Virus genome (UHGV): UHGV-1962423
Direction: 5' to 3' (one strand)
Length of the DNA: 64,000 nucleotides
Source: a virus
How positions within the stretch are numbered: position 1 is the stretch's first letter; each line of letters opens with the position of its first letter. Below, one piece after another: positions 43,597-53,683 of this stretch. The notes beneath the pieces were generated by a model, which worked only from the letters and a program-made list of their open reading frames with translations, was not told the DNA's origin and ran no database searches. The position numbers and the translations under genes were made by a program.

Positions 43597-44030
43597 AAGT
43601 AAAAGCAGCAGTAGAAGTTATTCCCAAAAAAGAAATCGTAGTGTGTTCCGGTTTAGTATTCGAGCTGCCGCGCACTGAATGTTATAATAGCACCAATCCT
43701 GAAACGATAATTAGACGCCTTTCAAGACATTGCCTAAACTACTGTCAAGTTGTTACACCGACAAAGGATGGCGATATAGTCCAAGAACATTTGATTATTA
43801 ATGAACTCGTGGGCGGTGTCCTTAACGGAATGGAGCTTGAAGAAGTGAATGGTTCGTTAAAGCTTTATGCCAACTTTCGTCCATGTGGACCACTGGGCAA
43901 TAAAGTAAATGAATTTATTCAGTCACACGGGTATGTAAAGCTTAAACCACGTTTACACTATATCGATTCTAAAGTAGCTATGATTTCAGCTATCGATATT
44001 GACCTATCAAAACCTTCTGAAAATCACTAA
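43593..44030 (+). CDS. hypothetical protein (145 aa)
   Basis: ATG 43593 with GGAGA RBS and ATGA overlap; track start 43575 is an upstream in-frame ATG. Confidence 0.65.
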   Translation: MKVKAAVEVIPKKEIVVCSGLVFELPRTECYNSTNPETIIRRLSRHCLNYCQVVTPTKDGDIVQEHLIINELVGGVLNGMELEEVNGSLKLYANFRPCGPLGNKVNEFIQSHGYVKLKPRLHYIDSKVAMISAIDIDLSKPSENH

Positions 44031-44060
44031 CCGTCCTTGATTTTCAGCTACAGATTAGTT

Positions 44061-44108
44061 TCCTACCGCCCGATTCTATGGGCGGTAGGTGTTTTATTTT
44101 TTTTTTTG
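44061..44108 (+). terminator. rho-independent terminator
   Basis: cctaccgccc-gattctat-gggcggtagg followed by tgttttatttttttttttt. Confidence 0.8.
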
Positions 44109-44123
44109 ATCTTGGAGGGTTAA

Positions 44124-44687
44124 GTGGCCACATCTTACGTACCTGATTTGAGTCTGACCTCAGCAGAGCTAGTGGTCGCTTTAATCAATCATGATAACGG
44201 GTTACAGCTTACGCTAAACGAAATCCGTATTAGCGGAACCGTAACAAACCCATCACCAACAACTTCGCGTCGTAACACCATCACCGAAATCAGTAAAATC
44301 AGAAAACCGGATGGTGCGTCTGTTGTGGTCTACTACGACAGACTTGACGCCGATGAGGTATTAACGTCTGAACCTATTTTGATTTCGTTAGACGGTACCG
44401 AAGCGAATATCCGTGACGTTCTGAGTGTTGTAAATGAACACTGCGGTACGAACTTACAGCCTGAAGACTTACGCGTTTCTGATATTACTTCAGGTAACGA
44501 TCCTATTGCCGTTAACGTTGCCGACGATTCACCTGCGTGGATGAATGCGTTTATGGTGACGTTATTTGATAAAACTGAGCGTGCGTTAGCGAACGAAGAA
44601 GATGAAATCTTCTGCATCGGTGACGATAGCGTTCTTACCTTTGAGGTTCCAGATGACGACTCAGCTGAAGAAAACCCGACTACATGA
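44124..44687 (+). CDS. small protein paired with downstream tail fibre, module A (187 aa)
   Basis: GTG start with GGAGGG RBS; clear paralog of 50418..50930 (PDLSLTS...V.L.NHD..LQL...NE, shared C-terminal CGIGDDSV.LTF); both sit directly upstream of a receptor-binding gene. Confidence 0.7.
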   Translation: MATSYVPDLSLTSAELVVALINHDNGLQLTLNEIRISGTVTNPSPTTSRRNTITEISKIRKPDGASVVVYYDRLDADEVLTSEPILISLDGTEANIRDVLSVVNEHCGTNLQPEDLRVSDITSGNDPIAVNVADDSPAWMNAFMVTLFDKTERALANEEDEIFCIGDDSVLTFEVPDDDSAEENPTT

Positions 44688-44892
44688 ACTTGATGATTTT
44701 TACCGGTAATGGAGGACAAAGCAAACTTTTATCAAGACTTAGCAAACCAAAATCATGAAAACGCGAAATTGAACATCGCTTTCACGTTAGAAGATGATGT
44801 ATTAAAACCAGGGCAATAGTAACCCGCTTATAAAAAATTGGGGGGTAAACTACTCTCCTGATCTTTTAGCTCCCGATAGAGAATTAAATATC

Positions 44893-47800
44893 ATGGCTAA
44901 AGCGGTAAAGAAAATTCGTTTACACGATTTACGTCCATACACCGGTGATATCGGTGAAGGCGTTTTACTTTTCTCCAAGGATGAGAAAGATTATAAGTTA
45001 CCAGTCCGTGAGGTTATTGCAGATATTGACACCGTACGTAATGCGGTGGCTGATGCACAAACAGCAGCAGCACAATCACAAGAAGCTGCAACTCAGGCTA
45101 CGCAAGCAAAAGTTTTAGCAGAAGCAGCAAAACAACAAACTGACACAGTTGCGGCAACGGTTGCACAACAAGCGCAAACCGTAACCGAAAAAGCAACAGA
45201 AGTCAGTACAAAACATACCGAAGTGTTAGCCGCGAAAACGGCGGTAGACGCTCAGGCTGTGTCCATTAATGAGAAAGCACAAGCGGTAGCGACAAGTGAG
45301 GCAAACGTCACACAAGCAGAAACTACCGTTACGAAGAAAGCAGAAACTGTTGCCACACAAGCCGGGCGGGTCGAACAGTCACTTACGGCAGTTAACGAAG
45401 CTGTTGCGTCGGTAGAGTCGTCGAAAGCTGCCGTAGAAGCTAAAGCAACACAAGTTACTTCAGACAAAGAAACCGCAGAGAATGCGGCAACTCGTTCTGA
45501 GGCAGCCGCTAAGCGTGCGGAAGAAATCGTTGCTCAAGGTACTGTTGATGCAACAACGACCAGTAAAGGTGTCGTTAAACTTAATAATACCTTAACCAGT
45601 GACTCTGTTACTGAAGCGGCTACACCGTCAACGGTTAAGCAGTTAAATGATGAATTGCAGTTAAAAGCAAACCGTCACAACCCAACTTTTACCGGTGTGG
45701 TAAAAGCACCGACTCCTGCTTCGGATTCTAACGACACGAGCGTCTCAACGACTGCATGGGTACGGCAAGCGATTGCTGAATTAGTGGACTCTTCACCCGA
45801 GACGTTAGATACGTTATCAGAAATTGCAGCCGCGTTAGGAAACGATCCTAACTTTGCGACAACGATAACGAACCAACTAGCGGGTAAACAGCCGTTAAGT
45901 CCGTTACTGACAGCGATTGCCGCAGTCACCACCGCTGCAAACAAACTCCCTTACTTTACCGGTAGTAATCAGGTAGGGTTAGCGGATTTCACCTCGACTG
46001 CTCGCGAATTATTAGCGAAAGGGTCGACGGCCGATATCATCAGCTTCCTGGGGTTGAAAACCACCGTTGATAAAGCTGCGGGCGCTATGCAACGTAGTTC
46101 TAACGGTGCCGATATTCCCGATAAAGCCACCTTCGCGAAGAACATCGGGTTGTCAGCAGAGACGTACCTGAAGTTTAATGGGGAGATGCCAGTAGATGCA
46201 GACATCAACACCTTCGGCCCGGTTGAAGCGTTTATGGGCGTTTGGTCTAAAGCCACGTCTACGAACGCAACAGTTGCAAAGAATTTTCCAGAAGAAAACG
46301 CAGTTGGTTGTTTAGAAGTTTTCAAAGCGGGTAACTACAGCGGAAGTCAACGTTTTACTGTACGTAACGGTAACATCTATACACGTCATCTTACTGCTGC
46401 ATGGAATGGGACAAACGGTCCTTGGTCAGAATGGCGTAATGTTGCTGGTTCCGCCAGAACGTTGAACGAACAAAATAATCTGAATGACTTGGGTGGTGAG
46501 GCCGCACTAGGTGTTTGGAGAAACAGTTCGAGTACATTAGCAACAACCGCGCTGAATTATCCTGAAGAAGGCTCTTTTGCCCAGGGCGTATTAGAAGTTC
46601 TCAAAGGTGGCAACTATAGTTACACACAACGCTACACTACCCGCAGAGGCAATGTATACGTTCGTTGTCTACAAGCCACGTGGGACGCTTCAAACCCGCA
46701 ATGGGAAGAATGGCGCTGTGTTGGTCATCAATCTGTCAGCACATATTTCGAAGGCGATCTCGACACGTTAACTTCGCCTAACCGTTATAGCATTACTGAT
46801 AAAGCGACAAACGTTCCTTTAATCGACGGTACTAAAATTATCGGTATCTTGGACGTCAGTCGTCGTTTTGATAACATTAGTGTCGAACAAAAATTCACCT
46901 CGTTTGGTTCTGGGAGCAAAACTACAGGGCGTATTTTCACACGTGTATTCTCCGGTCAATCAAACGGTAAATGGAGTGAGTGGCGAGAGGTTTTCACCTC
47001 GTATTCACTTCCGTTAGTTTTAGGTATCGGTGGGGTTGCAGCTAAGGTTGACCCGTTAGACTGGCAAACCTACGACTTCGTTCCTGGACAGATGTTAACG
47101 ACGCCGTTGAACACCATGAAAAACATTCCTGCAGGAATGGATTGGGGTACTATTGACGGTAACTTAGTTAACATCCTTGTAGGGCCGTCTGACGACACCG
47201 GTACTGGTCGGAGTATGCTGGTTTGGCGTAGCACAGTGTCTGTTGCTAACTATCGCTTCTTTGCGGTACGTATCGCTGGTGAGAAGGGTAGTCGTACGAT
47301 TACGCCGCGTCAGATGCCTGTGTTGAACGCAGCGCACACCTGGTCAGAGAAACAAACGTTCTCTAAAGGTTTAGCGGGTGAATTAACCGGTAATGCTTCT
47401 TCAGCAACGAAACTTCAAACAGCCCGTTTAATCGGCGGCGTAAGTTTCGACGGCACCAAGGACATTGCACTCCCTGGCGTTAACGCACAAGGTACGCAGA
47501 ACACCACTGGGAATGCGGCTACCGCAACCAAATTACAAACGGCTAGAAATATCAACGGTGTGAAATTCGATGGCTCTGGAGACATCAATATCAACACCTT
47601 AGTAGGTCGTGGACGTGTCACTGCTCTGGCTGGATCAAACAAAGGTACACCTGGTATCCAGATGTACGAGGTTTACAATAACGGTTATCCGACCGCGTAT
47701 GGTAATTTACTGCATTTAGGTGGTGCTACTGCCGTAGGTGAAGGTGAACTACTGATCGGTTGGTCTGGTACCAGTGGCGCACACGCACCTGTTTATATCC

Positions 47801-49209
47801 GTAGTCGTCGAGACACTACAGATGCGCCGTGGTCAGAATGGGCGCAAGTTTATACTGCACGAGACAGCATTCCGGGTGTCAACACCACAGGTAATCAGGA
47901 TACGACCGGAAACGCAGCTACCGCTACAAAACTTAAAACCACACGTAAAATAGGCGGGGTTAATTTTGACGGAACGGGTGATATTAACCTACCAGGTGTA
48001 AACCAGCAGGGCAACCAGAACACAACAGGTAACGCTGCGACAGCGACTAAACTCCAGACTGCCCGAAATATTGGTGGTGTGGCTTTCGATGGTACTAAAG
48101 ACATCAGTTTACCTGGGGTAAACCAAACAGGGAATCAGTCAACTACGGGGAACGCTGCTACTGCAACGAAGTTGCAGACAGCAAGAAGTATCAACAACGT
48201 ACCATTCGATGGTTCGAAAGATATTACTCTAACGCCAAGTAATATCGGTGCGGCTGCCTCCTCAATGACTTGGTTAAATACCGGGGATAATGGTGCAGCG
48301 CTTAGTACAGATTCTTTTATTACTTTGTTGCAAAATAACGGGGCTTTTAATTCCAGAACTTGGATAGCCCGATGCTCTTGGGCGTATGCTCAAAATGGCG
48401 TGATTCCAGATAGTGAAACAAAGTGCGGTACTATTCCACTTGCAGGCTCAGTTATTGAAGTTGTAAGTTTTGGGATGACCAACTACACCATTCGTATCAC
48501 AACCCCTACGACGACATCGGTTAGCGGAGCAAAAACCAACTCTGAGTTTATTTATTGCTATAATGGTAAAGATTATTCTCCAGGTTGGCGACGGCAGTAT
48601 AACACTGTTAATAAACCGTCTGCTAGTGACGTTGGCGCTCTACCAACTGGTGGCGGTACTGTCAGTGGCGATTTGACGGTTAATGGTAAACTGGTTACGA
48701 AAAATGCCGATTTTCGAATTGCTTACGGTAGTTACGGTTTCATTTTACGTAACGATGGCAATAGCACCTATTTCTTAGTAACAGCATCTGGTCAAGCTGC
48801 AACGGGTTCCTGGAATAACTTACGACCGATGTATTTTAGCAACTCTACCGGTCAAGTAACCTTCGGGCACAACGTTACTGGTAACGGGAACGGTTCGTTT
48901 AACGACGTACAGATTCGTTCTGACCGTCGTAACAAACGTAATCTGGTGAAACTGGATAATGCATTAGACCGTTTAGAACTCCTTACCGGGTATCTGTACG
49001 AAGTTCAACATCCTGACGATGGATGGAATACTTCGGTAGGCTTAATTGCCCAGGATGCATTAGTTGCGTTACCTGAATTGGTTACTGAAGACGATGACGC
49101 TATTTCTGGTGAAAAACGTTTACGTTTGAACTATAATGGTGTTATTGCGTTGTTGGTAGAGGGCATTAAAGACCTTCGTCGTGAGCTTAAGGAACTCAAG
49201 GGGAAATAA
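44893..49209 (+). CDS. long tail fibre protein with C-terminal intramolecular chaperone domain (1438 aa)
   Basis: N-terminal anchor shared with 50934 gene; Ala/Thr/Gln-rich coiled-coil; tandem TGNAATATKLQTAR.IGGV.FDGTKDI.LPGVN repeats like T4 gp12/gp34/gp37 fibre repeats; C-terminus SDRRNKRNLVKLDNALDRLELLTGYLYEV...GLIAQDALVALPELV matches the self-cleaving chaperone of endosialidase/L-shaped fibre proteins. Confidence 0.85.
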   Translation: MAKAVKKIRLHDLRPYTGDIGEGVLLFSKDEKDYKLPVREVIADIDTVRNAVADAQTAAAQSQEAATQATQAKVLAEAAKQQTDTVAATVAQQAQTVTEKATEVSTKHTEVLAAKTAVDAQAVSINEKAQAVATSEANVTQAETTVTKKAETVATQAGRVEQSLTAVNEAVASVESSKAAVEAKATQVTSDKETAENAATRSEAAAKRAEEIVAQGTVDATTTSKGVVKLNNTLTSDSVTEAATPSTVKQLNDELQLKANRHNPTFTGVVKAPTPASDSNDTSVSTTAWVRQAIAELVDSSPETLDTLSEIAAALGNDPNFATTITNQLAGKQPLSPLLTAIAAVTTAANKLPYFTGSNQVGLADFTSTARELLAKGSTADIISFLGLKTTVDKAAGAMQRSSNGADIPDKATFAKNIGLSAETYLKFNGEMPVDADINTFGPVEAFMGVWSKATSTNATVAKNFPEENAVGCLEVFKAGNYSGSQRFTVRNGNIYTRHLTAAWNGTNGPWSEWRNVAGSARTLNEQNNLNDLGGEAALGVWRNSSSTLATTALNYPEEGSFAQGVLEVLKGGNYSYTQRYTTRRGNVYVRCLQATWDASNPQWEEWRCVGHQSVSTYFEGDLDTLTSPNRYSITDKATNVPLIDGTKIIGILDVSRRFDNISVEQKFTSFGSGSKTTGRIFTRVFSGQSNGKWSEWREVFTSYSLPLVLGIGGVAAKVDPLDWQTYDFVPGQMLTTPLNTMKNIPAGMDWGTIDGNLVNILVGPSDDTGTGRSMLVWRSTVSVANYRFFAVRIAGEKGSRTITPRQMPVLNAAHTWSEKQTFSKGLAGELTGNASSATKLQTARLIGGVSFDGTKDIALPGVNAQGTQNTTGNAATATKLQTARNINGVKFDGSGDININTLVGRGRVTALAGSNKGTPGIQMYEVYNNGYPTAYGNLLHLGGATAVGEGELLIGWSGTSGAHAPVYIRSRRDTTDAPWSEWAQVYTARDSIPGVNTTGNQDTTGNAATATKLKTTRKIGGVNFDGTGDINLPGVNQQGNQNTTGNAATATKLQTARNIGGVAFDGTKDISLPGVNQTGNQSTTGNAATATKLQTARSINNVPFDGSKDITLTPSNIGAAASSMTWLNTGDNGAALSTDSFITLLQNNGAFNSRTWIARCSWAYAQNGVIPDSETKCGTIPLAGSVIEVVSFGMTNYTIRITTPTTTSVSGAKTNSEFIYCYNGKDYSPGWRRQYNTVNKPSASDVGALPTGGGTVSGDLTVNGKLVTKNADFRIAYGSYGFILRNDGNSTYFLVTASGQAATGSWNNLRPMYFSNSTGQVTFGHNVTGNGNGSFNDVQIRSDRRNKRNLVKLDNALDRLELLTGYLYEVQHPDDGWNTSVGLIAQDALVALPELVTEDDDAISGEKRLRLNYNGVIALLVEGIKDLRRELKELKGK
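47385..48240 (+). repeat. tandem in-frame coding repeats of the fibre motif
   Basis: At least five copies of the ~25-50 aa unit; nucleotide copies differ at synonymous positions. Confidence 0.7.
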
Positions 49210-49212
49210 AGG

Positions 49213-49755
49213 ATGGCAGTTGTTGAAGTTCCAGGTTATATCGGTTCTTCTGCAAAGGAAGTTACTGGCGAAGAGATGATGTCTGAAGCGATGACCGAAC
49301 TCGGCGTTGTCGTACCAGGGATGATGTCTGAAATGGCAGGTCTGTCAATGGGTTGCTATGTAACGTTTGAGGAGTGGACTACCGTTGAAGATGGCCTTGA
49401 TGTTCGATGGATCGGTGCGTCTACTTCCGAGTGGACAGACGGCTACGGCAAACCGGTCGTTAAAGGAAAAATATCCGGGGCGAAGATGTTTGGTTTGAAT
49501 GTCGAAGCGGAGCTGATCGGAATGCACTATAAAAAGCATCCGCGATTCCCTTGGTCAGTCGAACTAAAATGTCGCTGCGAAAAAGGTAGCAATTTCAGTT
49601 ATACGTTAGACGGTGTAAGCGGTTCTGTATCGAGTGATGGTACCGGTACAACCGGAATGCAAATTCGTACATTCAAATTTAACAATTTCAGTGCAGCATT
49701 TAAGGAAAAGATAGAGCAAGTTGGTGTCAAGATGCCAACATCACGTAAATATTAA
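49213..49755 (+). CDS. hypothetical protein downstream of tail fibre, paralog 1 (180 aa)
   Basis: MAVVEVPGYIGSSAKEVTGEEMMSE...MGC; paralogous N-terminus to 49812 gene (MAV....G..GSSAK.ETGE..MS.A...LG...P.MMS.M.G.SMGC). Confidence 0.7.
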   Translation: MAVVEVPGYIGSSAKEVTGEEMMSEAMTELGVVVPGMMSEMAGLSMGCYVTFEEWTTVEDGLDVRWIGASTSEWTDGYGKPVVKGKISGAKMFGLNVEAELIGMHYKKHPRFPWSVELKCRCEKGSNFSYTLDGVSGSVSSDGTGTTGMQIRTFKFNNFSAAFKEKIEQVGVKMPTSRKY

Positions 49756-49799
49756 AAGAGTAGCGTAGGGGTGACCTCCCCCCTACGCGAATCTTAACA

Positions 49800-49809
49800 G
49801 GGGGGGGGG
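49800..49809. repeat. G10 homopolymer tract immediately upstream of start codon 49812
   Basis: Ten consecutive G directly read in sequence, 2 nt before the ATG; preceded by hairpin gcgtagggg...cccctacgc at 49763-49788. Confidence 0.9.
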
Positions 49810-49811
49810 TA

Positions 49812-50315
49812 ATGGCGGTTAACTCGGGTTGGGTCGGTTCTTCGGCTAAGAGCGAAACGGGCGAACAGTGGATGAGCGCTGCGGGTGCCAAATTGGGATT
49901 GGGTAAACCTTTTATGATGAGTCAAATGGTGGGACGATCTATGGGCTGTAAAATTTCAACTGCTGCATATAGTGATTCTTTAGGTAAGAAATGGGGTGCT
50001 GTGGGATCAAGTTGGCCATTAACTCAGAAAAATCAGGGAACCATTCAAAACGCGGGTAACTGCGGGGTGGGAACTTTAGTAGGTATAGAGTTACAATTAA
50101 CGACGGTAGTTGCCAACGCAACGCCTACTCTAGCGGTCTATTTACAAGGCGGCAGGGCCTCTAACATCACTGCAAATCTAGGCGGTAACACTTGTGCGCT
50201 GACCTATCAGCAGGTTATTAATGGCCAACATTATTACTGGACCAATAACATTAGTGCCGCGTTCCAAAACGTGATGAAATCGACCGGTACACTAAGAGAT
50301 TTCAAAATTAGTTAA
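49812..50315 (+). CDS. hypothetical protein downstream of tail fibre, paralog 2 (167 aa)
   Basis: Paralog of 49213 gene; start codon directly after the G10 tract. Confidence 0.65.
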   Translation: MAVNSGWVGSSAKSETGEQWMSAAGAKLGLGKPFMMSQMVGRSMGCKISTAAYSDSLGKKWGAVGSSWPLTQKNQGTIQNAGNCGVGTLVGIELQLTTVVANATPTLAVYLQGGRASNITANLGGNTCALTYQQVINGQHYYWTNNISAAFQNVMKSTGTLRDFKIS

Positions 50316-50352
50316 TTATTTTTCAAACGAATGTGTTTGAAAACGTAATCGA

Positions 50353-50362
50353 GGGGGGGGGG
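50353..50362. repeat. second G10 homopolymer tract in intergenic region
   Basis: Ten consecutive G, 55 nt upstream of GTG 50418. Confidence 0.9.
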
Positions 50363-50417
50363 TGAAGTGTTTTTAGCCAACATTTTATGTCTCCCCAACC
50401 GTAGGAGGTAAATATAC

Positions 50418-50930
50418 GTGGAACAATTCACGCCAGATTTGTCGTTAACTTCACTTAACATGGTTATTTCACTGGTTAACCATGACCTCCAACTTGACTT
50501 GCAAGAGAATGAGGTCGAAGTCAGTGACGTAAAGACCAGTGACGAAATGGAACGTGACACCACTGCTGTTGTAAAGATAAAACGTTCTGGTAACAGAACG
50601 TTACAAATCTACTACAACCGTTTAACTGCAGAGCGGTGGTTAAACCGACAACCTGTACTTGTAAAAGTAACAGGCGAAGGGTTTAATGCGCACGATCTAA
50701 TCGAATCCATCAACACCGTTTGTGGTGCTAACTTACAAACCGACGATTTAACCGACCAGTCGTTCACGGTGGGTAAAGACGCGGTAATATTTAGCATCGC
50801 TCCGAGTTCCCTCGGCTACAAAGGTCAGTTCTCCGTGGTGGTTTTCGGTCCAGATGAAACACCGTGTGGTATCGGTGACGATTCTGTCGTGCTAACGTTT
50901 GACAATAAAATCTTAACCTTTGGAGAGTAA
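50418..50930 (+). CDS. small protein paired with downstream receptor-binding protein, module B (170 aa)
   Basis: GTG start with AGGAGG RBS; paralog of 44124..44687. Confidence 0.7.
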   Translation: MEQFTPDLSLTSLNMVISLVNHDLQLDLQENEVEVSDVKTSDEMERDTTAVVKIKRSGNRTLQIYYNRLTAERWLNRQPVLVKVTGEGFNAHDLIESINTVCGANLQTDDLTDQSFTVGKDAVIFSIAPSSLGYKGQFSVVVFGPDETPCGIGDDSVVLTFDNKILTFGE

Positions 50931-50933
50931 TAG

Positions 50934-53066
50934 ATGAGTCAGCCAATTGGAAAGAAGCGTATTCATGAGCTGGAAACATTTGAAGGTGAATTAGCAGGAG
51001 TCGTTCTGCTGATGTCCAAAGACGACAAAGAATATAAACTTGACGCATCTCGTTTACAAAACGATAAGCTGTATCTAGCTTGCGGTACACCTTTTCCTAA
51101 ACTAGTATTCCAAAACGATAAAACACTTTACAATATTAATCCGTACAGTGACTACGACACTTATGAAGTTTCTGCAAATAAAGGTCGGGTATCTAAAGTT
51201 ACTCGTGCCACATTTAGCGTGATGGCTGGGTCTTTATCGGTTGGCGAGAAAATACAACTTACAGTTACGCGCAATGGCGTACCATTTCAATTTGAAGTTA
51301 CCGTATCGGGACCGCGTATCACTACTCCCACTTGGACACTTCCAGTTAATGGCGGTAAATTGAGCGTAACGCCAACCTTTGAAGTAACTGACTATCAAGC
51401 CTATCCATATACCAACACCGGTAATCAACAGACCGCTGCCAGTTGGGAAATTTCCACTAGTGAAGATTTCTCAACTACAGTTTTCCAATCACTGAACGAC
51501 ACCGTCAACAAAACAACCATCAGTATCCCAGAAGGTAAGTTAGAACCAGGTCAAACTTACTACGCACGTGTTCGCTTCCATAACGCAGTAACCGAAAGTG
51601 ATTGGTCCGTTGTTCAATTCTCAGTCGGCGAAGCATTTATTCAGCGTCCTGCACTGATCGAACCCACCGTAGACATGGTGTTAAGCGCATCGAATATTAC
51701 ACTTAAAACTGATGTTTTTAAATGGGTCGGTGACGAACCTGCGGAGACCCACGTATCGACTGACTGGCAGGTTACTTACGGTAGCAACGATTTTGACGAA
51801 ATGAATAATCTCGTTAACCAATTAGAAGATGCGATTAACCTGACGTCGCTTAAATTACCGTCTGATCGGGTTTACGTTAATAACAGTTATCGTGCACGCG
51901 TGCGTTTTCGTGGTGAGAGAAGCGTCAGTGATTGGTCTGAACCTTTAACGTTCCGTGTAAGTCGCGGGAACGTACCAACAAGTGAATTCCAGTCAATTTC
52001 TGCTTCTGGATTTACAGGTAATTCAATCGGTGCTGAGTTGGCATGTACTGACGACGGTTTGCTGTTTGCTGCTACTGGCGTTGCACAGAAAGCGAAATTC
52101 TTACATATCTTTAAGAAAGACTTCCCGTCTTACAACAAAGTTGCCTCTTTAACAGCTGCTACTGAGGTTGACGCAGACAGAGATGGTCGCTGTCCGGTCA
52201 GTATGTCAGCCGACGGTAAGATTATTGTTGTCGGTGTTAGCGCATCTAAAGCTAACGAAGACCACGGCGAAGTTATCGTTTACCGTAACCCAGATAACGC
52301 TGAGTGGAGTACAATCAACGGAATAACTTTAGCGGGATTACCCACAGAAGGGTTCCATGGCCTTGCAGTAAAACTGTCAAAAGACGGCAATCGTTTGATT
52401 GTGGGTAACGGTACGAAAGTGCTGTCTATGTATTCCAATACCGATCAATTTGCTACACGTACGGCTGTGTCGCCGACACTAAGTGCCGAAGACGCCACTT
52501 GTGGTGGTATTGGTAGCATTGCAATGTCTGAAGACGGTAACGGTTTAGTGCTTGGCGAAACTAACGGAACGAAATTCCACGTACTGGCTTGGGAATCGGA
52601 TAGTTGGGTGACTAAGGCATCTATTACACCAAAAGACTTGACTGAGAAAGCAACGATTAAAGTCGCTGCTTCTTCTGACTTGTCTACGATTCTTGTTTCT
52701 GTAGTTGAGACACACAAATACTACGTTTACAAGAAAACCGGTGATAGTTGGTCTCTGTTCCAAACCTTGGATTATACCGAACTGGATTACTCCATTACTT
52801 CTACCCGTTACCCGACGGGAGACATTAATGTTGCGCCTTCCGGAAGCTGGTTAATTTTCGGTATGGTGGGTTCGTTGGGTTCTATTTTCGAATTTCGTAA
52901 TAGTACCTACCAACGACAAAATAGCATTTACGGCAGTAGTCTTAGCGATCCTGAGAATTACCACTTCTATACGTCACAAGCCATCAGTGCACAAAACGAT
53001 TTGTTCGTCGGTGCTGATGTTAAAGAAAGTGCTTCGTACTTCCCACAAATCAAAGTTTACATGTAA
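50934..53066 (+). CDS. second receptor-binding protein (tail fibre/spike) with shared N-terminal anchor (710 aa)
   Basis: N-terminus KKRIHELETFEGELAGVVLLMSKDDKEYKL parallels KKIRLHDLRPYTGDIGEGVLLFSKDEKDYKL of the 1438-aa fibre; central Ig/FN3-like stretches; C-terminal repeated ..DG..IVVG.. units suggestive of a beta-propeller (inference). Confidence 0.6.
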   Translation: MSQPIGKKRIHELETFEGELAGVVLLMSKDDKEYKLDASRLQNDKLYLACGTPFPKLVFQNDKTLYNINPYSDYDTYEVSANKGRVSKVTRATFSVMAGSLSVGEKIQLTVTRNGVPFQFEVTVSGPRITTPTWTLPVNGGKLSVTPTFEVTDYQAYPYTNTGNQQTAASWEISTSEDFSTTVFQSLNDTVNKTTISIPEGKLEPGQTYYARVRFHNAVTESDWSVVQFSVGEAFIQRPALIEPTVDMVLSASNITLKTDVFKWVGDEPAETHVSTDWQVTYGSNDFDEMNNLVNQLEDAINLTSLKLPSDRVYVNNSYRARVRFRGERSVSDWSEPLTFRVSRGNVPTSEFQSISASGFTGNSIGAELACTDDGLLFAATGVAQKAKFLHIFKKDFPSYNKVASLTAATEVDADRDGRCPVSMSADGKIIVVGVSASKANEDHGEVIVYRNPDNAEWSTINGITLAGLPTEGFHGLAVKLSKDGNRLIVGNGTKVLSMYSNTDQFATRTAVSPTLSAEDATCGGIGSIAMSEDGNGLVLGETNGTKFHVLAWESDSWVTKASITPKDLTEKATIKVAASSDLSTILVSVVETHKYYVYKKTGDSWSLFQTLDYTELDYSITSTRYPTGDINVAPSGSWLIFGMVGSLGSIFEFRNSTYQRQNSIYGSSLSDPENYHFYTSQAISAQNDLFVGADVKESASYFPQIKVYM

Positions 53067-53075
53067 GGAAACGCG

Positions 53076-53636
53076 ATGAAATATGCTTATTTAAAAGACG
53101 GTAATGTGATCGACTGGAATGTTACCGAAGACATGATTGCTTTGCGTGGCCACACTGTAGATATTTATACGCCTGTAGTAGAATCTGCTAAACCGGTTGT
53201 TAACCCTGATTGTTATATCGTGTTCGAAACAACACCAAAACTGGTAAAAGGCAAGCTGGTTCAACAGTGGGTGACTGAAGTGCTGCCTAAAGAAACGGTA
53301 GTACGTAACCAGAAGGCACGTTTAGCGGAAATTCGTTATGCGAAAGAAACTGCCGGGATTACGTTTAAAGACCAAACTATTCCTACGACACGTGATGTAC
53401 GTTATCAGTTAATTCAGTCTAAACACGTTGATTCTACGCAACCTATTAACTGGAAGCTAGGCGATACGTGGCTAAGTCTTACTCAGGAAGACATTGATGC
53501 GCTGCTGGTTGCAATCGCAACTTATGTTGAGAAATGCTACGCGGCAGAACGCACAGTCTCCGAGAAAATCACTAAGGTGAAAGCACCTGAAAAACTGGAT
53601 GTAGAAACCTTATTTAACGACGCTTTCGCAGCGTAA
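53076..53636 (+). CDS. hypothetical protein, possible fibre assembly or accessory factor (186 aa)
   Basis: Immediately downstream of the second receptor-binding gene; role inferred from position only. Confidence 0.6.
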   Translation: MKYAYLKDGNVIDWNVTEDMIALRGHTVDIYTPVVESAKPVVNPDCYIVFETTPKLVKGKLVQQWVTEVLPKETVVRNQKARLAEIRYAKETAGITFKDQTIPTTRDVRYQLIQSKHVDSTQPINWKLGDTWLSLTQEDIDALLVAIATYVEKCYAAERTVSEKITKVKAPEKLDVETLFNDAFAA

Positions 53637-53640
53637 CACG

Positions 53641-53683
53641 GTAGCAGGGGCTAAGCCCCTGCTACCTTTTTCTTTATTTTTTC
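53641..53683 (+). terminator. rho-independent terminator
   Basis: gtagcagggg-ctaa-gcccctgctac followed by ctttttctttatttttt. Confidence 0.8.

What the first reader, a model, noticed from the sequence alone, without database searches (positions are those of the whole stretch)
48900..49209. C-terminal self-cleaving chaperone domain on the long fibre
The last ~100 residues (SDRRNKRNLVKLDNALDRLELLTGYLYEV...GLIAQDALVALPELV...LNYNGVIALLVEGIKDLRRELKELKGK) match the intramolecular chaperone domain that trimerises and then auto-excises from endosialidase tailspikes and L-shaped fibres. It implies the mature tip is created by proteolysis.
Basis: partly seen in the sequence, partly recalled or inferred. 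Interest (0 to 1): 0.4.

Follow-up and report, generated by a model that had tools for sequence, protein, structure and literature searches.

The report
Self-cleaving chaperone domain on phage fibre
The last 96 residues of a 1438-residue tail fibre of an uncultured giant phage are a typical self-excising folding domain, and removing it most likely exposes a docking site for one of two small receptor-binding caps encoded next door; this mechanism is well known and common.

Summary
ORF 44893-49209 (+, 1438 aa) ends in a Peptidase_S74 intramolecular chaperone domain: Pfam 41.2 bits against a cut-off of 22, E 2e-10. The domain runs from S1343 to K1438 (48919-49206). The Ser-x4-Lys dyad is present as S1343/K1348. 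Among 168 homologues Ser is kept in 161/164, Asp in 163/164 and Lys in 164/164.

The closest solved relative is the gp37 fibre of Salmonella phage S16 (6F45, E 1.6e-25 with a profile). The profile also reaches the phage GA-1 neck appendage chaperone (3GUD) and the human MYRF self-cleaving domain (7DC3). I predict cleavage at DVQIR|SDRRNK, giving a 141.8 kDa mature fibre and a 10.9 kDa released fragment.

Two Gp38_N adhesin genes follow directly (49213-49755 and 49812-50315), as in T2- and S16-type phages.

The window comes from an uncultured SPN3US/Goslar-like giant phage. The block of tip strand, chaperone domain and adhesin is about 82% identical in protein to that of Stx-converting phages, while Goslar's homologous fibre uses a separate Tfa chaperone.

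Verdict: a new member of a known kind, of low to moderate interest. Cleavage and docking are inferred, not shown.

The parts
44893..49209 (+). Long tail-fibre gene, 1438 aa, 152.7 kDa precursor. It has a 36-aa N-terminal anchor motif, an Ala-rich segment, a Phage_fiber_2 repeat (aa 221-260), four 'WSEW/WEEW' motifs, four AATATKL repeats, Gp34_trimer (aa 1213-1314) and a C-terminal chaperone domain.
   Evidence: Exactly the same protein is found on 7 metagenome contigs.
48529..48834 (+). Gp34_trimer domain (aa 1213-1314), the last folded trimeric module before the tip.
   Evidence: Pfam PF21446 at E 1.7e-22. PDB matches to phage Mu fibre protein S (5yvq) and T4 gp34 (5nxh, 4uxe) at E about 1e-15.
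48877..48918 (+). Tip segment TGNGNGSFNDVQIR (aa 1329-1342). It ends in the beta-strand DVQIR, the predicted docking face for the adhesin. The homology block shared with Stx-phage fibres starts here.
   Evidence: Alignment. DVYIR|SD in fPS phages and DLNVS|SD in S16 are described in PMC7917993. Conservation among homologues: D 117, V 125, I 116, R 115 of 168.
48916..48921 (+). Predicted scissile bond R1342|S1343. S1343 (48919-48921) is the nucleophile of the dyad.
   Evidence: Ser is kept in 161/164 homologues. It aligns with residue 1 of the released GA-1 chaperone domain 3GUD, with the S16 cleavage site, and with position 587 of MYRF, which is Ala in the crystallised construct.
48934..48936 (+). 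K1348, the general base of the Ser-Lys dyad.
   Evidence: Lys is kept in 164/164 homologues. It is equivalent to endoNF K916 and MYRF K592.
48919..49206 (+). Intramolecular chaperone (Peptidase_S74) domain, 96 aa, 10.9 kDa, predicted to be released after trimerisation. It contains the invariant G1383-x-x-A-Q and P1394, and a C-terminal amphipathic helix.
49213..49755 (+). Adhesin-like ORF A, 180 aa, starting 3 nt after the fibre stop codon. It has a Gp38_N attachment domain, but the three Trp 'prongs' are replaced by Y9, M22 and M38. Its C-terminal domain is a fast-evolving paralogue of ORF B.
   Evidence: Pfam Gp38_N at E 4.4e-11 and phrog_1121. Alignments. Homologues at 91% and 52% identity are always followed by an ORF B-type gene. 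No full-length homologue in isolated phages.
49812..50315 (+). Adhesin-like ORF B, 167 aa, Gp38_N with W7 and W20 kept. It is a homologue of the Stx-phage 'tail fiber adhesin / receptor recognizing protein Gp38'.
   Evidence: Pfam Gp38_N at E 1.2e-20 and phrog_1121 at E 1e-45. Its N-terminus aligns with S16 gp38 (6f45_D) at E 3.4e-4. The N-terminal 150 nt are 85-89% identical to Stx and CMS-2020a phages.

Best explanation
The 1438-aa fibre is made as a precursor whose last 96 residues (S1343-K1438) are an intramolecular chaperone of the Peptidase_S74 family. Three C-terminal domains associate through their terminal helices, set the register of the three chains and drive folding of the upstream trimeric modules. 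Once the trimer is correctly folded, S1343, activated by K1348, attacks the R1342-S1343 peptide bond. The 10.9 kDa fragment leaves, giving a kinetically stable 141.8 kDa mature chain. The new C-terminal face, three copies of the strand DVQIR, then serves as the docking site for the N-terminal Gp38_N domain of a small monomeric adhesin encoded directly downstream (ORF B and/or ORF A). That adhesin is the actual receptor-binding tip, as in T2-, RB49- and S16-type long tail fibres. What is shown here: domain membership, the dyad, its position in the protein, the gene neighbourhood and the conservation. What is inferred: the cleavage itself, the release of the fragment, and which adhesin docks.
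For: Pfam Peptidase_S74 is hit above its cut-off. S16 gp37, which is experimentally processed, matches at E 1.8e-12 with the single sequence and 1.6e-25 with a profile. The same profile hits the released GA-1 chaperone domain 3GUD, with its residue 1 aligned to S1343, and the MYRF self-cleaving domain 7DC3. S/D/K are kept in 161, 163 and 164 of 164 homologues, and 155 of the 168 homologues analysed end within 15 residues of the domain. The DVQIR|SDRRNK motif matches the published sites DLNVS|SDRRIKK in S16 and DVYIR|SDGRLK in fPS phages (PMC7917993). The Ser-Lys dyad mechanism, and the requirement for trimerisation before cleavage, are described in PMC8326128. Two Gp38_N genes follow the fibre gene, the first only 3 nt after its stop codon. 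In five other loci the same tip and chaperone domain is followed by a Gp38_N gene: L007 (a classical PF05268 gp38), L008, L009, L011 and Stx phage P13374. The conserved block shared with Stx phages starts 14 residues before the cleavage site and runs into the adhesin, so docking strand, chaperone domain and adhesin travel together.
Against: There is no experimental evidence of cleavage for this protein. The AlphaFold2 monomer model was poor (pLDDT 68.6, pTM 0.44) and Foldseek gave no significant PDB match, so the fold is supported by sequence profiles only. ORF A lacks all three Trp residues said to anchor S16 gp38 to gp37, and ORF B lacks the third. Neither ORF has the polyglycine GP38 domain. 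Which of the two docks, or whether both do, is unknown.
Confidence: 0.78

Rival explanations
1. The chaperone domain is excised, but the processed fibre end is itself the receptor-binding tip, as in T5 pb1 or the endosialidases. The two Gp38_N proteins would then serve another fibre or act only as assembly factors that are absent from virions.
For: The Peptidase_S74 family includes fibres that need no adhesin cap (four families are listed in PMC8326128). ORF A has lost the Trp prongs. A variable domain upstream of Gp34_trimer differs between the window and L007 and could bind receptors laterally.
Against: The tip strand, chaperone domain and adhesin are inherited as one block. A Gp38_N gene follows this tip type in every locus examined. 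Gp38_N is by definition the domain that attaches to gp37. The only other receptor-binding protein in the cluster has its own DUF4376 partner and no chaperone domain.
Confidence: 0.12
2. The domain acts as a folding chaperone but is not excised. It would be a degenerate or inactive protease that stays on the mature fibre.
For: Nothing specific. It remains possible only because cleavage was not measured.
Against: S1343, D1344 and K1348 are all intact and invariant in the family. A retained chaperone domain would sterically block the docking face used by Gp38_N adhesins (PMC7917993).
Confidence: 0.07
3. The resemblance is due to chance or composition and there is no chaperone domain.
For: None found.
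Against: Searches give E-values from 1e-10 to 1e-25, and the catalytic residues are invariant.
Confidence: 0.01

Closest known systems
Distal long tail fibre subunit gp37 of T2/S16/RB49-type Straboviridae with its gp38 adhesin (PDB 6F45; Dunne et al. 2018, as cited in PMC7917993 and PMC9569957)
   Same: A C-terminal chaperone domain of about 100 aa with the SD(R/G)RxK motif. Cleavage follows a short beta-strand (DLNVS in S16, DVQIR here). A Gp38_N adhesin gene lies immediately downstream. The profile E-value to 6f45_A is 1.6e-25. In the sister contig L007 the same fibre is followed by a true PF05268 gp38.
   Different: The host genome is an SPN3US/Goslar-like giant phage, not a T4-like one. 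The fibre is one 1438-aa chain rather than a gp34-37 assembly. The module before the tip is Gp34_trimer (also seen in the Mu S fibre). The adhesins are short (167-180 aa), lack the polyglycine domain, and there are two of them in tandem. The Trp prongs are partly (B) or wholly (A) replaced.
Tail fibre ORF65 plus 'tail fibre adhesin' ORF66 of Stx-converting podophages (P13374, phi191, 75/02 Stx, Ss-VASD)
   Same: About 82% amino-acid identity over the tip strand and chaperone domain. The N-terminus of ORF B is 85% identical in DNA. The gene order, fibre then adhesin, is the same.
   Different: The Stx fibre shaft is made of collagen-like repeats and is 680 aa. There is only one adhesin. The phage is a temperate short-tailed lambdoid.
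C-terminal intramolecular chaperone domains of endosialidase endoNF (3GW6), the phage GA-1 neck appendage (3GUD) and T5 pb1, and the self-cleaving ICA domain of eukaryotic MYRF (7DC3)
   Same: The same Pfam family and the same Ser-x4-Lys dyad. The profile hits 3GUD at E 1.7e-4 and 7DC3 at E 1.1e-8. Cleavage depends on trimerisation (PMC8326128).
   Different: These are distant in sequence. EndoNF and T5 pb1 were not reached by sequence search here. In them the processed end is not a platform for a separate adhesin.
Goslar gp090 fibre with the gp089 Tfa (Caudo_TAP) chaperone, and the P2 gpH / Mu S fibres
   Same: The shaft of the window fibre (aa 248-1118) is 52% identical to Goslar gp090, and aa 388-1345 align with P2 gpH. 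Goslar is a related giant phage.
   Different: Those fibres are folded by a separately encoded Tfa chaperone and have no Peptidase_S74 domain. In the window fibre that solution is replaced by the chaperone-domain-plus-adhesin cassette.

Membership tests
Peptidase_S74 / C-terminal intramolecular chaperone domain (PF13884) | Match to the family profile above the curated gathering score | tested here: met
   41.2 bits (C-terminal 152 aa) and 37.4 bits (whole protein) against a cut-off of 22; aa 1343-1397 cover profile positions 1-57 of 58.
Peptidase_S74 / C-terminal intramolecular chaperone domain (PF13884) | Catalytic Ser-x4-Lys dyad at the N-terminal edge of the domain (endoNF S911/K916) | tested here: met
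   S1343 and K1348 are present. Ser is kept in 161/164 and Lys in 164/164 homologues. They align with the S16 cleavage site, residue 1 of 3GUD and MYRF 587/592.
Peptidase_S74 / C-terminal intramolecular chaperone domain (PF13884) | Located at the extreme C-terminus of a trimeric fibre or spike protein | tested here: met
   The domain ends at the last residue. Upstream are Gp34_trimer and Phage_fiber_2. 155 of the 168 homologues analysed end within 15 residues of the domain.
Peptidase_S74 / C-terminal intramolecular chaperone domain (PF13884) | The three-dimensional fold of solved chaperone domains, including a C-terminal helix that forms a trimeric coiled coil | tested here: inconclusive
   The AlphaFold2 monomer model has pLDDT 68.6. 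It does predict a C-terminal helix at model residues 86-108. Foldseek against the PDB gave no hit with E<0.05. A trimer could not be modelled with these tools.
Peptidase_S74 / C-terminal intramolecular chaperone domain (PF13884) | Autoproteolytic release of the domain after trimerisation | not testable with these tools
   This needs SDS-PAGE or mass spectrometry of wild type against S1343A and K1348A.
T2/S16-type gp37-gp38 fibre tip | gp37-like chaperone domain preceded by a short beta-strand that forms the docking face | tested here: met
   NDVQIR|SDRRNKRN compares with DLNVS|SDRRIKK in S16 and DVYIR|SDGRLKI in fPS phages.
T2/S16-type gp37-gp38 fibre tip | A gene for a protein with the Gp38_N attachment domain directly downstream | tested here: met
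   ORF A at E 4.4e-11 and ORF B at E 1.2e-20, both above the 25-bit cut-off.
T2/S16-type gp37-gp38 fibre tip | Three conserved Trp 'prongs' in the adhesin N-terminus | tested here: not met
   ORF B keeps W7 and W20 but has Met at the third position. ORF A has Y9, M22 and M38. The classical gp38 in L007 keeps all three.
T2/S16-type gp37-gp38 fibre tip | A polyglycine-rich receptor-binding domain (PF05268 GP38) | tested here: not met
   There is no PF05268 hit in ORF A or ORF B. It is present in the gp38 of sister contig L007 at E 1.1e-68.
T2/S16-type gp37-gp38 fibre tip | One adhesin monomer physically bound to the processed trimer | not testable with these tools
   This needs co-purification, structure determination or multimer modelling.

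The most novel reading that the evidence does not exclude
One chaperone-processed fibre tip is served by two tandem, paralogous Gp38_N adhesins. ORF B is conserved. ORF A evolves fast and has replaced the canonical Trp anchoring residues. The two would compete for the same docking face, so a single giant-phage virion would carry a mixture of differently capped fibres and so recognise two receptors. This would be a way to widen host range that has not been described for gp38-type tips. The A-B tandem is kept intact in relatives down to 52% ORF A identity. In L007 a classical gp38 replaces A, and B carries a 1-nt frameshift.
Probability: 0.25. Interest if true: 0.5.

Novelty: new member of a known kind. 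Interest (0 to 1): 0.25.

Why it matters
The chaperone domain itself is one of the most common modules of phage fibres, with 16,392 representative clusters found here, so it is not a discovery. It is useful for annotation. It fixes the mature C-terminus of the fibre at R1342. It tells proteomics to expect a 141.8 kDa chain. It also points to ORF A and ORF B, not the fibre end, as the likely determinants of host range in an uncultured SPN3US/Goslar-like giant phage whose relatives turn up in Shigella assemblies. The locus also shows module exchange clearly. The block of docking strand, chaperone domain and adhesin is shared with Stx-converting podophages, and it replaces the separate Tfa chaperone used by the homologous Goslar fibre.

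Tried and rejected
(1) Megablast of 44000-51000 against isolated phages found only a 150-nt match at the N-terminus of ORF B, so no close cultured relative of the locus exists in that collection.

(2) The word-indexed homologue search with the C-terminal 139 aa returned only 22 close proteins, too shallow to judge conservation. I replaced it with the exhaustive representative search.

(3) An AlphaFold2 model of aa 1329-1438 from an 18-sequence alignment was poor (pLDDT 68.6, pTM 0.44). Foldseek against the PDB returned only insignificant MarR/PadR look-alikes (E>=0.05). I discard these as artefacts of modelling an obligate trimer as a monomer.

(4) phmmer of ORF A against the PDB gave nothing meaningful. 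Its Gp38_N assignment rests on Pfam and PHROGs only.

(5) The hairpin between ORF A and ORF B (49763-49788) is no more stable than shuffled sequence (z -0.63) and has no T-tract on the + strand, so I do not call it a terminator.

(6) I considered chance similarity and a retained, inactive chaperone domain, and rejected both (see rival explanations).

(7) EndoNF (3GW6) and T5 pb1 (4UW7/8) were not retrieved by either PDB sequence search. The link to them rests on shared Pfam membership and the literature only.

Full report
OBSERVATION. The region lies at the 3' end of a 4317-nt ORF, 44893-49209 on the + strand, encoding 1438 aa. The stated start, 48900, is one base out of frame. The domain proper begins at the Ser codon 48919-48921 and ends at 49206, which makes 96 residues. 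No ORF of 50 aa or more lies on the opposite strand under it.

IS IT THE CHAPERONE DOMAIN? Yes.
- Pfam PF13884 (Peptidase_S74, 'Chaperone of endosialidase') matches aa 1343-1397 over profile positions 1-57 of 58. The score is 37.4 bits for the whole protein and 41.2 bits (E 2.1e-10) for the C-terminal 152 aa, against a curated cut-off of 22.
- Many PHROG families of 'long tail fiber protein distal subunit' match the same stretch.
- Against PDB sequences, the best hit of the C-terminal 129 aa is S16 gp37 (6f45_A, E 1.8e-12). The alignment puts ..dvqirSDRRNKRN.. against ..DLNVSSDRRIKKD...
- An exhaustive HMMER search of 1.84 billion representatives found 16,392 clusters at E<=1e-3.
- I analysed 168 homologues: the 150 listed plus the close relatives. 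The residues aligned with S1343, D1344 and K1348 are Ser in 161/164, Asp in 163/164 and Lys in 164/164. G1383, A1386, Q1387 and P1394 are likewise nearly invariant. In 155 of the 168 proteins the domain ends within 15 residues of the C-terminus.
- A profile of 28 diverse homologues (A5) hits four PDB sequences: 6f45_A at E 1.6e-25; a putative tail fibre, 8jov, at 2.2e-12; the human MYRF self-cleaving domain 7dc3 at 1.1e-8; and the released chaperone domain of the phage GA-1 neck appendage, 3gud, at 1.7e-4. Residue 1 of 3gud (SDERHK...) aligns with S1343.
- The S-x4-K spacing equals that of endoNF S911/K916 and MYRF S587/K592. Those residues are experimentally indispensable, and cleavage occurs only in the trimer (PMC8326128).

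WHERE IT CUTS. In S16 the bond cleaved is DLNVS^SDRRIKK. In the Yersinia fPS phages it is inferred to be DVYIR^SDGRLKI (PMC7917993). The window has NDVQIR^SDRRNKRN, so the predicted bond is R1342|S1343. The precursor is 152.7 kDa, the mature chain 141.8 kDa and the released fragment 10.9 kDa. This step is inferred, not shown.

SURROUNDINGS CHANGE THE READING OF 'TIP'. Two paralogous small ORFs follow the fibre gene: ORF A (49213-49755, 180 aa), starting three nucleotides after the fibre stop codon, and ORF B (49812-50315, 167 aa).
- Both carry the Pfam Gp38_N attachment domain (E 4.4e-11 and 1.2e-20) and match phrog_1121 'tail fiber adhesin'.
- The N-terminus of ORF B aligns with S16 gp38 (6f45_D, E 3.4e-4).
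- In T2-, RB49- and S16-type phages, removal of the chaperone domain exposes a flat trimeric face onto which one gp38 monomer docks, and gp38 is the receptor-binding element (PMC7917993; PMC9569957).
- The processed end here is therefore most likely a docking platform rather than the adhesive tip.

GENOMIC AND EVOLUTIONARY CONTEXT.
- The window is from an uncultured giant phage. Exactly the same fibre is on seven metagenome contigs of up to about 201 kb.
- The conserved genes (major head protein, helicase, polymerase, virion proteins) match SPN3US, Stratton and Caitlin at 74-78% nucleotide identity.
- The fibre shaft (aa 248-1118) is 52% identical to Goslar gp090. That gene ends in a Gly-rich domain and is followed by a Caudo_TAP Tfa chaperone, with no Peptidase_S74 domain.
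- The last 112 residues of the window fibre are about 82% identical to the fibres of Stx-converting podophages (P13374, phi191, 75/02 Stx). Those fibres have collagen-like shafts and a downstream gene annotated 'tail fibre adhesin / Gp38'.
- The homology junction lies only 14 residues upstream of the cleavage site, at TGNGNGSFNDVQIR. Docking strand, chaperone domain and adhesin therefore behave as one exchangeable cassette.

RELATED LOCI SUPPORT THE PAIRING.
- A 221-kb contig in a Shigella flexneri assembly (L007) has a 1533-aa orthologous fibre with the same tip and chaperone domain. It is followed by a classical 260-aa gp38 (Gp38_N plus PF05268, E 1.1e-68), and then by an ORF B copy with a 1-nt deletion at codon 3.
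- The A-then-B tandem is intact in a 226-kb metagenome scaffold (L008), in a Shigella sonnei assembly contig (L009), and in a divergent Logan contig (L011) where ORF A is only 52% identical.
- ORF B is highly conserved between these loci and ORF A is variable.
- ORF A replaces the three Trp 'prongs' of S16 gp38 by Tyr or Met. ORF B keeps two of them.
- No isolated phage has a full-length ORF A homologue. ORF B is full length in 31 records.

WHAT FAILED. An AlphaFold2 monomer model of aa 1329-1438 was of low confidence (pLDDT 68.6), and Foldseek gave no significant PDB match. The fold criterion is therefore inconclusive, and membership rests on sequence and profile evidence. EndoNF and T5 pb1 themselves were not reached by sequence search.

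VERDICT. The refinement is that this is a gp37/gp38-type tip, so the chaperone-processed end is a platform for an adhesin. The domain is a new member of a very large, well-understood family. The moderately unusual aspects are its presence in an SPN3US/Goslar-like giant phage in place of a Tfa-type chaperone, its near identity to a cassette of Stx phages, and the conserved tandem of two adhesin paralogues.

Noticed in passing
window 49213-49755 and 49812-50315; L008 6001-7102; L009 2794-3894; L011 280-1365: Two paralogous Gp38_N adhesin genes (31% identical to each other) sit in tandem after one chaperone-bearing fibre. The tandem is conserved in at least three other contigs. ORF B is nearly invariant, while ORF A diverges to 52% identity and has Tyr/Met in place of the canonical Trp anchors.
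   Followed up: partly
L007 6471-7772 (Shigella flexneri assembly GCA_033681785.1, 221-kb contig): In a sister giant phage, the position of ORF A is taken by a classical polyglycine gp38 (PF05268). The ORF B copy behind it has a 1-nt deletion at codon 3, which looks like decay of a displaced adhesin.
   Followed up: partly
window 48877-50315 compared with L002 (Stx phage P13374 ORF65-ORF66): The docking strand, chaperone domain and adhesin N-terminus are about 82% identical in protein and 85% in DNA to Stx-converting podophages. The junction is 14 residues before the cleavage site, which indicates cassette exchange between a giant myophage and temperate podophages.
   Followed up: yes
window 49800-49809 and 49763-49788: A G10 homopolymer lies 2 nt upstream of the ORF B start codon, preceded by a GC-rich inverted repeat. 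The tract is identical in contig L005. The hairpin is no more stable than shuffled sequence (z -0.63). It could be a ribosome-binding or slippage-prone tract.
   Followed up: partly
window 44062-44089 and 53640-53666: Two strong terminator-like hairpins (11-12 bp stems followed by T-runs) bracket the whole receptor-binding gene cluster 44124-53636, which suggests one transcription unit.
   Followed up: no
window 44124-44687 and 50418-50930; 44893-45000 and 50934-51041: Each of the two receptor-binding proteins is preceded by a DUF7941 paralogue (33% identical, E 1e-31). The two also share a 36-residue N-terminal motif (44% identical), which is probably a common baseplate or adaptor attachment.
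   Followed up: partly
window 50934-53066 and 53076-53636: The second receptor-binding protein (710 aa, with Ig-like and beta-propeller-like hits) has no chaperone domain. It is followed by a DUF4376 protein, a likely separate assembly chaperone. In L008 and L009 this slot holds a SASA/DUF6645 protein instead.
   Followed up: no
window fibre aa about 1100-1210 (about 48190-48520) compared with L007 fibre aa about 1130-1330: A domain just upstream of Gp34_trimer is unrelated between the window fibre and its L007 orthologue, although the flanks are conserved. It may be a second, lateral specificity determinant.
   Followed up: no
whole window; L005; L007; L009: The window is an uncultured SPN3US/Stratton/Goslar-like giant phage with 74-78% nucleotide identity in core genes. 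Close relatives appear as contigs of more than 200 kb inside Shigella flexneri and Shigella sonnei assemblies, which hints at the host.
   Followed up: partly
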